DNA of 64,000 nucleotides from an uncultured cyanobacterium (GTDB lineage Bacteria; Cyanobacteriota; Cyanobacteriia; Cyanobacteriales; Cyanobacteriaceae): contig CAVVOP010000008.1 of NCBI GenBank assembly GCA_963749915.1, forward strand, positions 384,001 to 448,000, written 5' to 3'. Below, in pieces: positions 42,001-51,000 of the stretch. Position numbers: made by a program. The stretch's first letter is position 1. Each line of letters begins with the position of its first letter.

Positions 42001-45000
42001 AGGGAAAATGGTTATTAAGATTCACAATAATAAGCCTATTAATAATAGGTTATCTGTGTTTCTTGTTGGATTATTGAGCTCTGGCTTAACCGTGACATCT
42101 CCAGTTGTCGCAATGGAGACTGATCAGCAGTACGATAATTCAATGTCTCAGATTAACAGCGTCTCTCAACTGCGGGATGTCTCCCCCACAGACTGGGCTT
42201 ACGAAGCACTAAGAAGCTTGGTAGAGCGTTATGGCTGTATAGTTGGTTACCCTGACCTAACCTTCAGAGGAAATCGTGCCTTAAGTCGTTACGAATTTGC
42301 CGCTGGTTTAAACGCTTGTATGCAACAAATGGAGCGCTTGCTTGCCGCTAGTGAAGCAGTGATCCGAGAAGATATTGAAAAACTGCAACGCTTAGCCAAA
42401 GAATTTGAAGCTGAATTAGCCTATCTAGGTACCAGAATTGATAACTTGGAAGGTCGCGTCGCCTTTTTAGAAGATCATCAGTTCTCTACTACAGCTAAAC
42501 TGTCAGGTGACGTCATTATTAATTTGGGCAATGCCTTTGGTGGCGATCGAGCTGTACCTAGTGGTTCCCCACAAACTGACGAGAATATCGATCGACAAAC
42601 TTTTTTAAGTAATCGTGTTCGGCTCAAATTTAACACCAGTTTTACGGGCAAAGACAATTTACATATTCTCCTGCGAGCGAATAATACTCCCGTTTTGGGG
42701 ACATCGAGCACAGGAACGAACATGACCCGATTGGGTTTTGATGGAGGAAGCGACAATGATGTCACCCTTGATGAACTTTGGTATGAAAATCAAATCACCG
42801 AAAAATTTTGGTTCCTCATCGGAACTAGTGATGTGGATCTAGACGACGGAATTTTCTATTCTGGTCCTTCATTTCTAGAACCCAGTGCCACTGGGGCTGT
42901 TTCACGATTTCACCGTCGTAACCCTTTAACGAACAGACAACTAGGTAGTGCGGGAGCGGCTGTTAAATACAAGGTTAGCGATTTGCTTACCCTCAACTCT
43001 TTCTATCTCTCGGGGAATGGTCCGAGTCCCTTAGCGGGAAAAGGCTTATTTAACGGCTCTTTTGATACAGGGCTTCAACTAGATTTTACCCCTACCGATC
43101 GACTTGATATTGCCGTGAGCTATCTCTATAGCTATTACAATAGCGATCAAGTCAACTTAACCAATAGCACTGGTAGTAGCATCGCTAGTCAACCCTTTGG
43201 GGAGGTTGCCACTGCTAGTCACAATCTAGGAGCCACAGTCAACTGGCGTGCGAATGATTTAATCAACCTAACTGCCTGGGGAGCCTGGGGTAATGCTACG
43301 GCTTTAGGAGGCGATCGTCGTAATGATAATGCCACCCTTTGGACTTGGCAAGCAACTCTAGGATTTATCGATGTCGGCAAAGAAGGAGCAGTGGCTATCT
43401 TAGGAGTCGGTAGTCCTCCCTATGCCCCAACGGTAGATGGGGGTCAGGCTGACTTGGATACGCCGGTTTCCATTCTGGCTCAGTACAATTACCCCTTAAA
43501 CGATAACATCCAGCTTTCTCCAGCTGTATACGTGACCGTTAATCCTGAGTCGAATTCAGCCAATGATCCGATTACTGTTGGTGTAATTCGTACTACTTTT
43601 AAATTTTAGCACTGAAAAAATTAGGGCTTTTTCTATGATTGAATGGATTGTTTCAACCTTAAAAGATAACCCAGTACTTGGCGTTTATTTAGCCATCGCC
43701 ATCGGTTACTGGATTGGCAGCTTCAAGCTGGGCAGTTTTAGCCTGGGTTCAGTCACTGGCGTCTTGCTGGCTGGCTTACTTGTCGGGCAATTAGGCTTTT
43801 CCGTCGGGGGAGACGTCAAGACAATTTTCTTCTTGATGTTCCTCTTTGCCGTAGGTTATGGCGTCGGACCTCAATTTGTAAGAGGTTTAGCCTCCGACGG
43901 TGTGCCTCAGGCTATTTTTGCCGTTGTCATTTCCTTGCTCTGCTTGGGATCGGTATTTGGCTGTGCTCTACTAGCTGGTTTTACTGGAGATCAGCTTGGT
44001 TTTGGAGCTGGGTTGCTTTCTGGCTCCCAGACTATTTCTGCGTCCATCGGCTTGGCCACCGATGCCATTAACGGCCTCGGTCTTTCTGCTGATAAGGCCA
44101 AAGCCCTATTGGATCAAATTCCCGTAGCCTATGCTGTTTGCTACATTTGGGGAACCTTGGGTACAGGAATGATTGTCGCTTACCTAGGACCGATTCTTAT
44201 CGGAGCAAATATCCAAGATGCCTGCAAAGATTACGCAGCGAAGATGGGGGCAAAACCCGACGAAGACTTCCAATCTGCCTGGCACAAATTGGAACTCCGT
44301 GCCTACCAAATAGAAGCAACAGGGCAGGTGGCAGGAAAAACCGTTGCCGAGGCAGAAATGCTCCATGCTAGCGGTGAACGCCTGTTTATCGAGCGCATTC
44401 AACGTGACGATCAGTTTATCGATGCCGAACCGACGACTGTCTTAGAAGCAGGTGATATTGTGGCGGTTTCCGGTGCTACCCAAATCCTCGTCGAGGCTAT
44501 CGAACCTCATGCGACGGAAGTTGCAGCAAGGGATTTACTCAACGTTCCTGTAGAGTCTGTTGATATTGTGGTCACCCGCAAACGTTATAACGGCAAAACT
44601 CTGGAAGAACTTGCCCAGATGGACTTTGCCCGTGGAGTTTATCTCAACAATATTGCTCGTGGTTCGGCGGGGGTAAGTATCCCGATTTTCCCCAAAACGG
44701 CGATCCATCGCGGCGATCTCTTGAAAATTGCCGGTACCCGTCGCCATACTGATCGCTTGGTCAAAGAAATGGGCTACGCCGATCGCCCTTCCCAAACTGC
44801 CGATATGGTGTTTGTAGGGTTAGGTATTTTTGTCGGTGCCTTATTCGGTGCCATTACAGTGCCTATTTCGGGAGTACCAATTACCCTTTCCACCTCTGGA
44901 GGAGCATTAATTGCTGGTCTGATTATTGGCTGGTTACGTTCTGTTCACCCTACCTTTGGACGTATTCCTGGACCAACTCTCTGGTTCATGAACAATGTGG

Positions 45001-48000: not shown

Positions 48001-51000
48001 CATAATGGTAGCTTAAAGGAGATTTGGCAGGAAATGACCTTGTCAGGGGACAGCTTCCAACCCATTGGGGAAACTGATTCGGAATATGTCTTCTGTCTTT
48101 TGCTCGAGCGGTTGCAACCGCTGTGGCAACAGGAGAAAAAACCGCCCTCATTAGAGGATAGGCTGGAGATAATCTCCCAATTTGCCCAAGAAGTACGAGC
48201 GTACGGTCAAGCCAATTTTCTTTATTCCGATGGAGAAATCCTGTTCGTTCATGCCCATCGTCGGCGTTGGGAGGAAAACGGCGGTGTTAGCGAACCTAGA
48301 CCGCCTGGATTGAGTATCAGAAATCTTGATGTTGGGGAACTATCGACGATGGGGTTACAGATTCAAGGTCTGGAAAAAGATACCGTAATTACCCTTGTCG
48401 CCAGCGTCCCTCTGACTGTCGAAGGATGGACACCACTGCCAGAAGGTTCGGTTATCGCTCTGTGTCAAGGAAAAGAAATCGCTCGTGTCGAACCTTAGGA
48501 GTAAAAGACTCCTGAACAAAAATCATATAAACCATTAGAAACGAACAACTGCCCAAAAGTGGGCAAAAACCACAATCAAATAAGTAATAGGAGATAGACT
48601 CATGCTCAGAGATCAAGAACGTGCTTATGAAGCCCTCAGTCCCTTTGAAATTAAAAATAAGCTGATCGAGATTGCCCAGGAACAAGTGACTGACCACCAC
48701 GAAAGCCGAAGTACTCACATGATGCTCAATGCAGGGCGTGGTAACCCTAACTGGATTGCGACCACCCCTCGGGAAGCATTTTTCACCTTGGGGCAATTTG
48801 GTATTGCTGAAGCCAAACGAGTTTATGATGCTCCCAATCTCGGTGGTATGCCCCAAAAAGAAGGAATAGCCGATCGCTTTGATGCTTGGGCGGCTAGTCA
48901 TACTGATGCCCCTGGTATTGATTTCCTCAAGGCTTCCATTGACTATGGGGTAAAAACTCTGGGTTTCGATCGCGAAGCATTCATCCACGAACTCACTGAC
49001 AGTGTCATTGGTGATAACTATCCCGTTCCTGATCGCATGTTGATCCATACCGAGCAAGTCGTCCATGCTTACTTAGTACAGGAAATGTGTGGCAAACGCC
49101 CTCCTGAGGGTAAATACGATCTTTTTGCCGTGGAAGGAGGAACAGCAGCGATGTGCTACATTTTCAATACTCTGATGGAAAACAAGCTCATACACAAGGG
49201 AGATACTGTCGCCTTGGGTGCACCGATTTTTACCCCCTACATCGAAATTCCCCATAATCAAGATTACCAATTTAAAACCATCGATCTGATCCCCGATGAG
49301 GAAGATGAGTGGCAGTACCCAGCCTCAGAGTTAGAGAAGCTCAGAGATCCAGCCGTTAAAGCCTTTTTCTTGGTTAACCCTGGTAATCCTGCCTCCTATG
49401 CCATCCGCCCCGAGGCTCTGGAGCGTTTTGCCCAATTCGTGAAAACTGAGCGTCCTGACCTGATTATTATTACCGACGACGTTTACGGCACTTTCGTCAA
49501 TGGGTTTCGCTCCCTGATGGCGGTACTGCCCCAGAACACCATCGGTGTCTATTCCTACTCCAAATATTTCGGTTGCACGGGCTGGCGTTTAGGAGTAGTG
49601 GCTGTGCATGAAGACAATATCTTTGACCAAAAAATTGCCCAACTGCCCGAAAGCGATCGTCAAGCACTAATTAAGCGTTACAGCCGTATTGACCTCGACC
49701 CTGAGAACTTGAAATTTATCGATCGCATGGTTGCCGACAGTCGCCAAGTGGCCCTAAATCATACCGCTGGACTGTCTCTGCCCCAACAGATTCAGATGGT
49801 TTTATTCTCCATGCTATCTTTATTGGATACAGGGGACACCTATCGCCAACAGACCATGGCGATCCTGAAAAAGCGGATTGAAGCTTTATATAAGGGGATG
49901 GGAATTGAGCTTAAGCCCAGTGAGCTTGCTGCCTACTACTACCGTACCCTTGACTTTGAACTGTGGATGTGCAAGCATTATGGGGAGGACTTGGTCAACT
50001 TTGTCAAAACTAATTACGAGCCAGTAGATATCGTTTTTCGCCTAGCCGAACAGTTTTCTACGGTATTACTTAACGGTAGTGGTTTCGATGCGACAGATTG
50101 GTCGGCTCGGGTTTCCCTCGCCAATCTCAGCGACGATGCCTACGAACAAATAGGTAAGGATCTACATGCGATCGCTGCACAATATGTTGAGGAGTGGGAA
50201 GCAGCGAAAAATAAATAAAGGTTTACCTCTTCTGGCAGCATAGCTCCCTGCCTTCCAGAAACCATGTGCTTACGTCGGGAGCAGGAGATGCCCTTGTCAG
50301 TAAATCATTATAGTTCCTAAAATTCCCGCTCTGGATGATACGGGAGCCGATGAACAATTGTAGGTTCCTACAATCGTTTTCTAAGCTGATAAATACAACA
50401 TTTTCTCTTTAAAAATTTGGAAATATTCTCTATGTACAATTTACTAAAATGTTTCTTCCGCCGATCGCCATTGAAAAAACTCTCTCTTGCCAGTTTGAGT
50501 ACCCTAATGTTATTGACAATCTCTGAAGCAGCCCAAGCCAATACAGTACTGGAGAATGTTGCCCGCACGGGAAAACTGGTCATTGGTACATCTAGTGATC
50601 TCGTCCCTTACGCTTATTACAACGAAAAGGATGAATTTGTCGGTTACTCGATTGATATTGTTAATCTGATTAAAGCTGAGTTAGAACAAGAACTAAATCG
50701 TGAAGTAGAGCTTGTTTTTGTTGAAACCAATAGTATTGCTGAAGCGATTCCCAAAATGGAGAGTAATGAGATTGATATGGCTTGTAATGCTTCTTTCACC
50801 TGGGCTCGAGACCAGTTTGTTGACTTTACGGCTCGTTATAGTGTAGTCAATATCCGTTTGCTTGTGCCTAAAGACAGTACGATCGCTTCAGGTCAATCCC
50901 TAGCTGGCAAACGAATTGCTGTTCCTCCGGTTGATTTCGCACGTGCTTTACTAGAACTATCAGAACCTGAGGCTATTTTGGTCGATGTTGATTCCTTGAT

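What a model noticed while it worked through the whole genome (the two positions that open the first line are those of the whole stretch)
43635..50218. Aspartate:alanine antiporter, aspartate 4-decarboxylase and glutamate decarboxylase island acquired by a cyanobacterium [...]
A 6.6-kb stretch of raised G+C (0.48-0.49; genome mean of genes 0.376) encodes an AspT-type aspartate:alanine antiporter (g01074), a glutamate decarboxylase 75% identical to GadA of Aliivibrio fischeri (g01075), a YafJ-type amidotransferase (g01076) and the bifunctional aspartate aminotransferase/L-aspartate 4-decarboxylase AsdA (g01077). AspT plus AsdA is the electrogenic aspartate-in/alanine-out decarboxylation cycle known from Tetragenococcus; it gives this phototroph a decarboxylation route to proton-motive force or acid relief and is all but unknown in cyanobacteria.
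Evidence so far: NCBIfam equivalogs over cut-off: TIGR03802 (E 3e-187), TIGR01788 (E 2e-201), NF006755/TIGR03801 (E 4e-241); Swiss-Prot best hits AsD Pseudomonas sp. 47%, GadA A. fischeri 75%, bll3476 52%. G+C. TIGR03801 over its cut-off in 2 of 401 sampled Cyanobacteriota genomes: this one and one genome of family f23; none of the 6 family relatives sampled; that other genome has no AspT within 1.5 kb. Pfam Asp-Al_Ex 0 of 6 genus, 0 of 19 family, 30 of 1012 order genomes. Papers: 6 listings for aspartate 4-decarboxylase + cyanobacteri, none by title or abstract on a cyanobacterial gene. Short contigs of two other metagenome runs match island and flanks at 99-100% in 29 and 26 of 30 bins at similar depth.
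(Added by a program. Inside this text positions count along the whole contig: contig position 384,001 is position 1 of the stretch shown here. "Call 12" and the like, gene names such as g00115 and contig names such as C1 are that model's own, and its searches are not shown. The text may have been shortened before it was handed on; [...] marks where a part breaks off. The agent that wrote the report below was given it as the finding of a first reader that could run no searches.)

Follow-up and report, generated by a model that had tools for sequence, protein, structure and literature searches.

The report
Cyanobacterial aspartate/glutamate decarboxylation gene cassette
A sediment cyanobacterium carries an intact, foreign-looking five-gene cluster (outer-membrane porin, aspartate:alanine antiporter, glutamate decarboxylase, small amidohydrolase, aspartate 4-decarboxylase) that is very rare in cyanobacteria but is shared with a few distant ones; the biochemistry is known and its use here is untested.

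Summary
AspT, GadB-type GAD, YafJ and AsdA are intact at the stated coordinates. All three equivalog models score over cut-off, catalytic and substrate-binding residues are kept, and G+C is raised (96th-97th percentile of this genome's ORFs).

The interpretation needs four corrections.
1. The conserved unit has five genes. The upstream cyanobacterial-type porin travels with it, since the same order occurs in a distant cyanobacterial MAG (L020).
2. It is not private to this genome. AsdA, AspT and GAD each fall in a well-supported clade whose named members are all cyanobacteria (Waterburya-named MAGs, an Oscillatoriales MAG, Rubidibacter lacunae AspT). The cassette circulates among cyanobacteria, with saturated dS and dN/dS of 0.01-0.15.
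3. GAD has 86% orthologs, standing alone, in same-family genomes.
4. The cluster lies in a 22-kb variable stretch with pseudogenes and transposases. There is no tRNA, integrase or border repeat.

Rarity is confirmed: AsdA in 1 of 301 order genomes and 2 of 401 phylum genomes. An independent contig now bridges the right border; the left border is still unbridged.

Function (Asp-in/Ala-out plus proton-consuming decarboxylations, for proton-motive force or acid relief) rests on homology only. No RNA data exist and no GadC was found. I rate it a new member of a known kind, of moderate interest.

The parts
40637..41841 (-). Left neighbour. A KefB/KefC-type (CPA2) K+ efflux gene that is broken and lacks its N-terminus. 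It consists of two ORF pieces that match profile positions 125-344 and 403-559 of 623.
   Evidence: The best relative in 5 genus/family genomes is only 30% identical. GC3 of the larger piece is 0.463, the 95.5 percentile.
41972..43609 (+). Cyanobacterial-type outer-membrane porin (SLH plus OprB; NCBIfam 'iron uptake porin' por_somb) and first gene of the conserved cassette. The ORF is open from 41768. The start near 41972 is inferred from where the match to the L020 ortholog begins.
   Evidence: NF033921 scores 545 bits against a cut-off of 100; PF04966 and PF00395 match. The L020 ortholog sits directly upstream of aspT and is 62-69% identical. Paralogs in G000 reach 46% at most. dN/dS against L020 is 0.145. 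G+C is 0.447.
43635..45338 (+). AspT, an aspartate:alanine antiporter of the AAEx family. It starts 25 nt after the porin stop.
   Evidence: TIGR03802 scores 621.8 against 546.95. It has two Asp-Al_Ex regions plus TrkA_C. Against solved T. halophilus AspT the E-value is 1e-53. Of six Asp-contact residues, five are identical and one is Ser to Thr.
45479..46879 (+). GadA/GadB-type glutamate decarboxylase.
   Evidence: TIGR01788 scores 667.1 against 380.4. Against E. coli GadB (1pmm) the E-value is 2.3e-193, and the SGHK lysine motif is kept. It is 94% identical to the L020 copy and 86% to the lone GAD of two same-family genomes.
46898..46918 (+). Terminator-like hairpin followed by a T-rich tail, just after gad. 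This suggests two transcription units: porin-aspT-gad and yafJ-asdA.
   Evidence: This is a consensus scan only.
47047..47349 (+). Remnant of a group II intron maturase inside the 803-nt gad-yafJ spacer. It is part of a repeated element spanning about 47118-47533.
   Evidence: PF08388 GIIM matches at E 3.2e-5. Pieces of 47118-47533 recur in other genomes and on G000 contig C19. No Rfam match was found. L021 lacks 47416-47540.
47683..48498 (+). YafJ-type class-II (Ntn) glutamine amidotransferase-like hydrolase that stands alone, with Cys at position 2.
   Evidence: PF13230 matches at E 1.1e-61. The translation starts Met-Cys. It is 74% identical to the L020 copy. The usual cyanobacterial YafJ-like proteins are only 33-38% identical (78 of 401 genomes).
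48602..50218 (+). AsdA, a bifunctional aspartate aminotransferase / L-aspartate 4-decarboxylase.
   Evidence: NF006755 scores 798.9 against 321, and TIGR03801 scores 777 against 435.1. It aligns over its full length to solved ASD 2zy2 at E 5.2e-159, with the Ser-x-Ser-Lys lysine and the Arg of the NAGRGNPN motif kept.
50417..53053 (+). Right neighbour, not part of the cassette: the grrP-grrA-grrM cyclophane RiPP genes, a second and diverged copy in this genome.
   Evidence: TIGR04262, TIGR04260 and TIGR04261 are all over cut-off. The copy on C5 is 51% (GrrP) and 60% (GrrM) identical. Genus relatives are 45-50% identical. This cluster is absent beside the cassette in L020.

Best explanation
**What it is.** Window 41972-50218 holds an intact five-gene cassette: porin, aspT, gadB-type gad, yafJ and asdA. 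It entered this lineage by lateral transfer and is one copy of a cassette shared by a few distantly related cyanobacteria. The aspT-asdA core, the gad and the yafJ are of a type otherwise found mainly outside cyanobacteria. The porin is a cyanobacterial family member. The cassette was therefore most likely assembled in a cyanobacterium and then passed on.

**How it most likely works (inferred from homology).**
1. External aspartate crosses the outer membrane through the porin.
2. AspT exchanges Asp(1-) for Ala(0).
3. AsdA converts Asp to Ala plus CO2 and consumes a proton. The cycle makes membrane potential and alkalinises the cytoplasm.
4. GAD adds a second proton-consuming decarboxylation (Glu to GABA plus CO2).
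5. YafJ may supply glutamate from glutamine or a gamma-glutamyl compound.

The likely benefit is proton-motive force and pH relief for a sediment-dwelling phototroph in the dark, under anoxia or under acid conditions.

**Shown:** gene identity, intactness, conserved key residues, purifying selection, rarity, and shared synteny.

**Inferred:** transport direction, coupling of the parts, the porin's role, the physiological benefit, and the donor.

**How sure.** About 0.95 for gene identity, 0.85 for lateral acquisition, and 0.55 for the physiological role. The single figure given is for the whole statement.
For: **Identity.** The equivalog models are over cut-off. Solved-structure homologs match at E 1e-53 (AspT), 5e-159 (AsdA) and 2e-193 (GadB). 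Of the six Asp-contact residues named in PMC12462496 section 8, T130, S132, Y167, L431 and T496 are identical and S498 is Thr. I counted these by hand on the alignment.

**Constraint.** dN/dS against the L020 orthologs is 0.012-0.145 for all five genes.

**Foreignness.**
- AsdA is found in 1 of 301 order and 2 of 401 phylum genomes.
- G+C lies at the 95.6-97.2 percentile. The same cluster is also G+C-rich in L020, at 0.48-0.51 against flanks of 0.39-0.43.
- Synteny with the genus stops at lpxD (39880) and resumes at der (62203).

**Cassette shared among cyanobacteria.**
- L020 has the same five genes in the same order, on a 244-kb contig whose flanks are cyanobacterial but not syntenic with G000.
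- L022 has asdA-aspT beside gatB.
- Each of the three proteins sits in a well-supported clade whose named members are all cyanobacteria; most rows are unnamed metagenome proteins. The AsdA clade has 12 rows (SH-aLRT 98), AspT 11 rows (100) and GAD 11 rows (97).
- Between G000 and L020's genome (G418), cassette proteins are 88-94% identical (AspT, GAD, AsdA). The three markers tried are lower: LpxD 58%, IF-2 65%, Der 78%.

**Coupling.** AspT lies beside AsdA in 38 of 41 loci. A GAD also lies in the flank in 4 of 41, including a Verrucomicrobiia and a Cupriavidus locus whose GADs are only 40-42% identical.

**Mobility.** AsdA is found on 71 plasmid records, 28 of them mobilizable or conjugative.
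Against: **No functional data.** There is no expression or biochemical evidence for any part.

**Weak points in the coupling.**
- AspT and AsdA are 3.2 kb apart, separated by gad, a terminator-like hairpin and an intron remnant.
- No GadC-type Glu:GABA antiporter was found in G000. GAD may instead serve the GABA shunt, as proposed for the lone orthologs (PMC12060301, passages).
- yafJ is interrupted by an insertion of about 125 nt in L020 and carries a stop or frameshift in L021. It may be dispensable.

**Weak points in the transfer argument.**
- dS between the G000 and L020 copies is saturated (1.3-2.8), so the sharing is old.
- The higher identity of cassette proteins than of markers may partly reflect stronger constraint. 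GAD is 80-83% identical even to Thiocapsa and Geminicoccaceae proteins.
- In the GAD tree the window groups weakly (84, not starred) with its family relatives, as vertical descent would predict.
- There is no tRNA, integrase or flanking repeat.
- The left border is not independently bridged.
- The G+C rise is moderate: 5% of ORFs are as high.
Confidence: 0.6

Rival explanations
1. The cassette is an old cyanobacterial inheritance. It was present in a common ancestor and lost from nearly all lineages, rather than moved laterally between cyanobacteria.
For: The named members of the clades holding AsdA, AspT and GAD are all cyanobacteria. dS is saturated between copies. The porin is of a cyanobacterial family. 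GAD orthologs at 86% occur in the same family, and the window's GAD groups with them (support 84).
Against: AsdA is absent from 6 of 6 same-genus, 16 of 16 same-family and 300 of 300 other order genomes searched. The cluster is G+C-rich relative to both hosts examined. Its neighbourhoods differ between G000 and L020. Cassette proteins are more alike than 3 of 3 housekeeping markers. It sits among pseudogenes and transposases.
Confidence: 0.1
2. The genes are real and were acquired, but they do not act as an antiport-driven energy or acid module. GAD feeds the GABA shunt that closes the cyanobacterial TCA cycle. AsdA and AspT serve aspartate uptake and alanine or C4/C3 amino-acid balance. Their linkage is an accident of co-transfer.
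For: The lone GAD orthologs of same-family genomes have been read as GABA-shunt enzymes (PMC12060301, passages). Other cyanobacteria use GAD this way (search listing, abstracts only). No GadC was found. A terminator-like hairpin and an 803-nt spacer split the cluster. yafJ is broken in L020.
Against: The AspT substrate pocket is that of the characterised exchanger. AspT-AsdA linkage is near-universal, at 38 of 41 loci. Unrelated GADs (40-42% identical) sit beside AspT-AsdA in two other phyla or classes. The GAD is the E. coli GadB type, which I recall, without a call, as the acid-resistance enzyme.
Confidence: 0.2
3. Assembly or binning artefact: the cluster belongs to another organism and was joined to a cyanobacterial contig.
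For: The window comes from a metagenome-type assembly (34 contigs, 2.09% contamination). The left junction is not bridged by any listed independent record. L021 sits in a bin (G420) whose markers are only 59-78% identical to G000, which shows that binning around this locus can go wrong.
Against: - L021, an independent assembly, is 99% identical across aspT to 8 kb beyond asdA, including grrPAM and G000-type repeats.
- A contig of run X1 crosses the right border with 0 differences, and runs X1 and X2 cover 30 and 28 of 30 bins at similar low depth. X1 may be the source sample.
- The first gene of the cassette is a cyanobacterial-type porin.
- The same cassette lies in other cyanobacterial contigs with cyanobacterial flanks.
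Confidence: 0.03

Closest known systems
AspT-AspD (AsdA) aspartate:alanine antiport / aspartate beta-decarboxylase system of Tetragenococcus halophilus (AAEx family). AspT structure: PMC12462496.
   Same: It has the same two proteins by equivalog models. The AspT domain plan is the same, with two Asp-Al_Ex regions plus a TrkA_C soluble domain. The Asp-binding residues are the same. AsdA aligns end to end with solved aspartate beta-decarboxylases.
   Different: - The host is an oxygenic phototroph with an outer membrane.
- The two genes are not adjacent; gad and yafJ lie between them.
- A dedicated porin gene precedes aspT.
- Identity to T. halophilus AspT is low (phmmer E 1e-53, and the alignment is visibly diverged).
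- The nearest non-cyanobacterial relatives are about 66% (AspT) and 65% (AsdA) identical, from Pseudomonadota-type and unnamed metagenome records.
E. coli Gad acid-resistance system (GadA/GadB with the GadC Glu:GABA antiporter).
   Same: The GAD has the same length (466 aa), matches GadB at E 2.3e-193 and keeps the SGHK PLP-lysine motif. In L020 an AraC-family regulator lies divergently upstream of the cassette. I recall, without a call, that the E. coli gad genes are also under AraC-type regulators.
   Different: No GadC homolog was found in the genome (TIGR00910, 0 matches at E<=0.001). The only transporter in the cluster is AspT. No regulator lies beside the cluster in the window.
The lone GAD of same-family genomes (P0127, named Cyanobacterium sp. 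Dongsha4 by NCBI), read as a GABA-shunt enzyme in PMC12060301.
   Same: It is 86% identical over all 466 residues and falls in the same starred GAD clade.
   Different: There it stands alone, with no AspT, AsdA, YafJ or cassette porin within about 9 kb. Its G+C is 0.40 in a locus of 0.36, against 0.476 here.
AspT-AsdA(-GAD) loci of other bacteria, for example Verrucomicrobiia L023, Cupriavidus necator L036 and Sulfuricaulis L026.
   Same: The AspT-AsdA pairing is the same. A GAD lies beside the pair in L023 and L036.
   Different: Those GADs are only 40-42% identical, so they were recruited separately. None of the 37 non-cyanobacterial loci shows the YafJ or the porin by my tblastn filter.

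Membership tests
AspT (aspartate:alanine antiporter, AAEx; TIGR03802 equivalog) | Score over the curated equivalog cut-off | tested here: met
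   621.8 bits against 546.95, covering profile positions 1-561 of 562.
AspT (aspartate:alanine antiporter, AAEx; TIGR03802 equivalog) | Two Asp-Al_Ex membrane repeats flanking a cytoplasmic TrkA_C-type soluble domain | tested here: met
   PF06826 matches in two stretches and PF02080 at residues 224-283.
AspT (aspartate:alanine antiporter, AAEx; TIGR03802 equivalog) | L-Asp contact residues of the solved T. halophilus AspT (Thr130, Ser132, Tyr167, Leu431, Thr496, Ser498) | tested here: met
   Five are identical and Ser498 is Thr. The residue list comes from PMC12462496 section 8. Positions were counted by hand on the alignment to 9veb_A, allowing for that chain's 6-residue His insert.
AspT (aspartate:alanine antiporter, AAEx; TIGR03802 equivalog) | Encoded next to asdA | tested here: inconclusive
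   It is in the same cluster and on the same strand, but 3.2 kb away with gad and yafJ between. The two genes are directly adjacent in the related L022 and in most other loci.
AspT (aspartate:alanine antiporter, AAEx; TIGR03802 equivalog) | Electrogenic Asp(1-):Ala(0) exchange | not testable with these tools
   This needs a proteoliposome assay.
AsdA (aspartate 4-decarboxylase; TIGR03801 / NF006755) | Score over the curated equivalog cut-offs | tested here: met
   777 against 435.1 and 798.9 against 321.
AsdA (aspartate 4-decarboxylase; TIGR03801 / NF006755) | Full-length likeness to solved aspartate beta-decarboxylases, with the PLP lysine and N-terminal arginine kept | tested here: met
   2zy2_A matches at E 5.2e-159 over residues 7-535. 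The Lys of Ser-x-Ser-Lys, the Arg of NAGRGNPN (chain position 37 by my count) and the Arg of the R-x-S-L-A-N-L motif are conserved. The roles of these residues are recalled, not taken from a call.
AsdA (aspartate 4-decarboxylase; TIGR03801 / NF006755) | Beta-decarboxylation of L-aspartate to L-alanine | not testable with these tools
   This needs an enzyme assay.
GadA/GadB-type glutamate decarboxylase (TIGR01788) | Score over cut-off and PLP-lysine motif | tested here: met
   667.1 against 380.4. SGHK aligns to the same motif of 1pmm_A.
Complete Gad acid-resistance system (GAD plus GadC antiporter) | A GadC-type Glu:GABA antiporter in the genome | tested here: not met
   TIGR00910 gives 0 matches at E<=0.001 in G000, which is 100% complete. 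The control search rings in 6 of 14 named genomes, 2 of them over the cut-off.
Classical genomic island | Atypical composition and absence from close relatives | tested here: met
   G+C is at the 95.6-97.2 percentile. AsdA is in 0 of 6 genus and 0 of 16 family genomes. Apart from gad in G198, G178 and G417, the porin's conserved N-terminal part and short repeats, nothing from 41.8-50.3 kb matched at DNA level in 30 relatives.
Classical genomic island | tRNA target, integrase or flanking direct repeats | tested here: not met
   There is no tRNA in 36-58 kb. Only short repeats of chance size were found. There is no integrase. Transposase ORFs lie 5 kb to the right, at 55317-57090.
YafJ-type class-II (Ntn) amidotransferase | GATase_4 domain with an N-terminal Cys nucleophile | tested here: met
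   PF13230 matches at E 1.1e-61 over residues 1-267. The translation begins Met-Cys. The substrate is unknown.
Cyanobacterial SLH-OprB porin (NF033921 por_somb) | Score over cut-off, with SLH and OprB domains | tested here: met
   545 bits against 100. PF04966 and PF00395 match. There are five paralogs in G000 at 39-46% identity.

The most novel reading that the evidence does not exclude
This is a cyanobacteria-tailored 'decarboxylation battery'. Cyanobacteria bolted one of their own outer-membrane porins onto a foreign aspT-asdA core, a GadB-type decarboxylase and an amidohydrolase. The cassette now passes between distant benthic lineages.

It would let an oxygenic phototroph draw proton-motive force, pH relief and internally released CO2 (one carbon per Asp or Glu, available to the carboxysome) from external amino acids in dark, anoxic sediment. 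AspT may carry both substrate/product pairs, since no GadC is present.
Probability: 0.25. Interest if true: 0.65.

Novelty: new member of a known kind. Interest (0 to 1): 0.4.

Why it matters
Decarboxylation-driven antiport is a classic energy and acid-resistance device of fermenters. It has not been described in print for cyanobacteria, as far as my six full-text searches show.

If the cassette works as its parts suggest, some sediment and mat cyanobacteria have a light-independent way to make membrane potential and resist acidification from external aspartate and glutamate. That bears on how they survive dark, anoxic periods.

The case also shows a foreign metabolic module being fitted with a host-type outer-membrane porin and then circulating within a phylum.

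Against this, the chemistry is known and public annotation already names these genes in a few cyanobacterial genomes. Nothing here shows expression or function.

Tried and rejected
- **RNA evidence.** The look-up of sequencing runs listed no RNA holder. All 10 runs are DNA-type sediment metagenomes from 4 studies, with at most 0.48 of the sampled words. Nothing can be said about expression.
- **Left border.** No listed contig of runs X1, X2, X5 or X8 bridges 41841-41972, and L021 starts inside aspT.
- **Border signatures.** No tRNA was found. No Rfam family matched at E<=0.1 in 39800-54500. Only short repeats were found.
- **Missing 5' part of kef.** No second piece was found in G000 and no close ortholog in 5 relatives (best 30%). 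I could not use it to mark an insertion site.
- **Shared site for gad and the asdA fragment.** A 649-aa ORF lies beside the lone gad of L016 and L017, and another beside the asdA fragment on C20. I suspected they marked a shared ancestral site. They are unrelated: no blastp hit at 1e-10.
- **Empty site in relatives.** The left flank (to lpxD) and the right flank (from der) lie far apart in all 5 relatives searched. No empty site could be defined.
- **Earlier findings of this scan.** None were found by place or by sequence.
- **Flawed tree row.** In the GAD tree the row L082 (G270a) was read in the wrong frame by my script (branch length 10) and should be ignored.
- **Literature on residues.** A search for the AsdA structure paper's residue numbering gave nothing usable, so those residue roles are recalled.

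Full report
**1. What is there**

- AspT: TIGR03802 scores 621.8 bits against a cut-off of 546.95.
- GAD: TIGR01788 scores 667.1 against 380.4.
- AsdA: NF006755 scores 798.9 against 321, and TIGR03801 scores 777 against 435.1 (all).
- YafJ: a full-length PF13230 GATase_4 protein (E 1.1e-61) whose translation starts Met-Cys.

G+C of the four genes is 0.476-0.493, against a genome value of 0.375. Among 3092 ORFs of at least 150 aa that I called across the genome (mean 0.381, sd 0.052), they lie at the 95.6-97.2 percentile. GC3 lies at the 93.9-96.7 percentile. 156 of 3092 ORFs are as G+C-rich. The rise is real but moderate.

Each of the four is single-copy in the genome.

**2. Key residues**

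- **AspT.** It matches the solved T. halophilus antiporter at E 1e-53. PMC12462496 (abstract and section 8 read) names six residues that contact L-aspartate. Thr130, Ser132, Tyr167, Leu431 and Thr496 are identical here, and Ser498 is Thr. I counted these by hand on the alignment, allowing for the six-His insert of that chain.
- **AsdA.** It aligns over residues 7-535 with solved aspartate beta-decarboxylase 2zy2 (E 5.2e-159). It keeps the lysine of Ser-x-Ser-Lys, the arginine of NAGRGNPN and the arginine of the C-terminal R-x-S-L-A-N-L motif. The roles of these residues are recalled, because my search for the structure paper found nothing usable.
- **GAD.** It has the same length as E. coli GadB, matches it at E 2.3e-193 and keeps SGHK.

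**3. The unit is larger than reported**

Directly upstream, 25 nt before aspT, lies a porin. NF033921 scores 545 bits against a cut-off of 100, and it has SLH plus OprB domains.

Locus L020 lies on a 244-kb contig of a cyanobacterial MAG. It carries porin (62-69% identical), aspT (90%), gad (94%), yafJ (74%) and asdA (88%) in the same order. The five porin paralogs inside G000 are only 39-46% identical, so the L020 porin is the ortholog and the porin belongs to the cassette.

In both genomes the porin is less G+C-rich than the other four genes: 0.447 here and 0.436 in L020. This fits a host-type gene joined to imported ones.

L020 differs from the window in three ways:
- It has two small ORFs (one a DUF1269 protein) between aspT and gad.
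- It has a divergent AraC-family regulator upstream of the porin.
- It has an insertion of about 125 nt, with inverted ends and a duplicated 9-nt word, that splits yafJ after about 30 codons.

**4. It is not private to this genome**

The genome-contig scan returned 41 loci. Three are cyanobacterial by record title.
- **L020:** described above.
- **L021:** 99% identical in DNA to window 44132-58203.
- **L022:** from an Oscillatoriales MAG. It has asdA followed by aspT (72% and 66-71% DNA identity), both split by frameshifts, next to gatB.

Protein searches show a sharp step in identity for two of the three proteins.
- **AsdA:** nine proteins at 84-98%, then 65%.
- **AspT:** nine at 78-98%, then 66%. 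These include records that NCBI names Waterburya sp. (90%) and Rubidibacter lacunae KORDI 51-2 (78%).
- **GAD:** many at 85-92%, then a smooth decline. Proteins of Thiocapsa, Geminicoccaceae and Oceanospirillaceae are still 80-83% identical.

Quick maximum-likelihood trees give starred clades around the window's proteins. Every named member of these clades is cyanobacterial; most rows are unnamed metagenome proteins.

| Protein | Clade size | Rows in tree | SH-aLRT | Hits used |
|---|---|---|---|---|
| AsdA | 12 | 81 | 98 | 39 of 120 listed, plus 41 locus rows |
| AspT | 11 | 48 | 100 | 34 of 120, plus 13 locus rows |
| GAD | 11 | 45 | 97 | 30 of 120 |

In the AspT tree, L022 falls in the sister group; together the two groups form a 15-row clade (99). 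In the GAD tree one row (L082) was mis-framed by my script and should be ignored.

The only other AsdA in the phylum sample (G210) is 50% identical. It sits on a long branch elsewhere and has no AspT nearby. It is a separate acquisition.

**5. Rarity and foreignness**

- TIGR03801 is over cut-off in 2 of 401 phylum genomes.
- In a second draw it is found in 1 of 301 order genomes (G000 only), with 0 of 6 same-genus and 0 of 16 same-family genomes.
- TIGR03802 is over cut-off in 1 of 401 genomes, and 26 of 401 hold some AAEx relative at E<=1e-20.
- The usual cyanobacterial YafJ-like proteins (78 of 401 genomes) are only 33-38% identical to this one.

GAD is different. 22 of 401 genomes have a homolog. 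Two same-family genomes (G178, G198) have one that is 86% identical over all 466 residues, standing alone with G+C 0.40. PMC12060301 (passages read) notes such a GAD as 'absent in most cyanobacterial genomes' and reads it as a GABA-shunt enzyme.

**6. Transfer or inheritance**

L020's genome (G418) is a distant relative of G000.

| Marker | G418 | Same genus (G296) | Same family (G178) |
|---|---|---|---|
| LpxD | 58% | 83% | 80% |
| Der | 78% | 94% | 85% |
| IF-2 | 65% | 79% | 73% |

The cassette's AspT, GAD and AsdA are 88-94% identical between the two genomes. The neighbourhoods differ, and the cluster is G+C-rich in both hosts. Together with the extreme patchiness, this favours lateral spread among cyanobacteria.

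Several results argue for caution:
- dS between the two copies is saturated (1.3-2.8), so the sharing is old.
- dN/dS is 0.012-0.145 for all five genes, so they have been kept under purifying selection in cyanobacterial hosts.
- The window's GAD groups weakly (84) with its family relatives.

L022's locus has G+C 0.49, like the cassette. A donor of that composition is plausible but not shown.

The ultimate source of the aspT-asdA core lies among Pseudomonadota-type and other lineages at 60-66% identity and cannot be named. AsdA is widely mobile: it occurs on 71 plasmid records, all below 60% identity, and 28 of them are mobilizable or conjugative.

**7. Setting in the window**

DNA synteny with genus and family genomes ends at lpxD (39880) and resumes at der (62203). 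These two flanks lie far apart in all five relatives searched. The 22 kb between them hold:
- a broken, N-terminally truncated kef gene with no relative above 30% in five relatives;
- the cassette;
- a second, diverged grrP-grrA-grrM set;
- an AAA ATPase;
- two transposase ORFs;
- a short multi-copy repeat;
- a split P450 gene.

There is no tRNA, integrase or meaningful border repeat.

Placement in the organism is still well supported. L021 and a 587-nt contig of run X1 (0 differences) cross the asdA-grrP junction. X1 may be the source sample. L021 sits in a bin whose markers are only 59-78% identical to G000, so that contig is mis-binned or recently transferred. The left junction (41841-41972) is not independently bridged.

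**8. Operon layout**

The porin and aspT are 25 nt apart, and aspT and gad are 140 nt apart. A terminator-like hairpin (46898-46918) follows gad.

The 803-nt spacer before yafJ holds a remnant of a group II intron maturase (PF08388, E 3.2e-5) that is part of a repeated element. yafJ and asdA are 103 nt apart.

Two transcription units are likely. This is inferred only.

**9. Mechanism**

By homology, the most likely working is as follows.
1. Aspartate enters through the porin.
2. AspT takes it up in exchange for alanine.
3. AsdA makes alanine and CO2 from it, consuming a proton. The cycle is electrogenic and alkalinising.
4. GAD adds Glu to GABA plus CO2.
5. YafJ may release glutamate from an amide.

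*Support for coupling.* AspT lies beside AsdA in 38 of 41 loci. Unrelated GADs (40-42% identical) lie beside the pair in a Verrucomicrobiia and a Cupriavidus locus.

*Against a complete Gad system.* No GadC was found. yafJ is broken in L020 and carries a stop or frameshift in L021.

*Habitat.* The only runs holding the sequence are sediment metagenomes (laid). Related copies at 90-99% identity occur in runs of three studies.

**10. Literature**

My full-text searches gave the following:
- 'aspartate 4-decarboxylase' with cyanobacteria: 6 papers, none about a cyanobacterial gene by title or abstract.
- 'aspartate-alanine antiporter' with cyanobacteria: 1 paper, a review on d-aspartate. I read the passages; the two terms occur in unrelated places.
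- 'aspartate decarboxylase' with AspT and cyanobacteria: 0 papers.

I found no printed description. The searched library holds open-access papers only.

**11. Verdict**

The feature is real and its parts are correctly named. It is rare in cyanobacteria and was acquired laterally.

It is one member of a cassette already present, and machine-annotated, in a few other cyanobacteria. Its chemistry is known. Its physiological role in a phototroph is an attractive but untested inference.

Noticed in passing
G000:C20:142191-142304 (locus L019, about 7191-7304): A 107-nt intergenic fragment is 90% identical to asdA codons 50-87 (92% at protein level). It is closer to the window's allele (89.7%) than to L020's (81%) or L022's (74%). 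It lies between a TPR/DUF481 gene and an unannotated ORF, and looks like a relic of a second or earlier asdA copy.
   Followed up: partly
L020:8950-9110 (yafJ of the Waterburya-named MAG): yafJ is split after about 30 codons by an insertion of about 125 nt. The insertion has terminal inverted repeats and a duplicated 9-nt word (CTACACCAG), like a miniature transposable element. The reading frame resumes afterwards.
   Followed up: partly
window 47047-47533: A remnant of a group II intron maturase (GIIM) and a repeated element lie in the gad-yafJ spacer. Pieces recur in other cyanobacterial genomes and on G000 contig C19. The near-identical L021 lacks 47416-47540. There is no Rfam hit.
   Followed up: partly
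window 40637-41841 (-): A KefB/C-type K+ efflux gene is broken in two and lacks about 124 N-terminal residues. No relative above 30% identity was found in five genus/family genomes. GC3 of the larger piece is at the 95.5 percentile, so it too looks foreign and decaying.
   Followed up: partly
window 50417-53053 and G000:C5:295426-298408: The genome has two grrP/grrM cyclophane-RiPP sets. The one beside the cassette is only 51% (GrrP) and 60% (GrrM) identical to the C5 set, and 45-50% to the GrrP of genus relatives.
   Followed up: partly
window 55317-57090, 57704-58204, 60485-61865: Two transposase ORFs are present: DDE_Tnp_4 (truncated) and DDE_3 (IS630-like). A repeat of about 500 nt has at least 4 copies at 95% in G230 and at least 12 at about 90% in G401. 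A cytochrome P450 gene is split into two ORFs. G+C is very low (0.29-0.30) over 55-58 kb.
   Followed up: no
L021 = G420:C132 (17.6 kb): This contig is 98-100% identical to the window, including copies of G000 repeats (window 19306-19860 and 34560-35422). The rest of its bin is a distant cyanobacterium (LpxD 59%, IF-2 61%, Der 78%). The likely cause is a binning error, or else a very recent transfer. Its gad, yafJ and asdA show frame breaks that may be assembly errors.
   Followed up: partly
L020:1124-2146 (-): An AraC-family regulator lies divergently upstream of the porin in L020. No counterpart lies beside the cassette in the window; the best G000 match is 30% identical, on C9.
   Followed up: no
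proteins P0145/P0253 and P0022/P0254: An 83% GAD and a 65% AspT share the same longest-contig length (132,791). A 60% AsdA and a 64% AspT likewise share 24,696. This hints that further unnamed organisms link these genes. The contigs could not be fetched.
   Followed up: no
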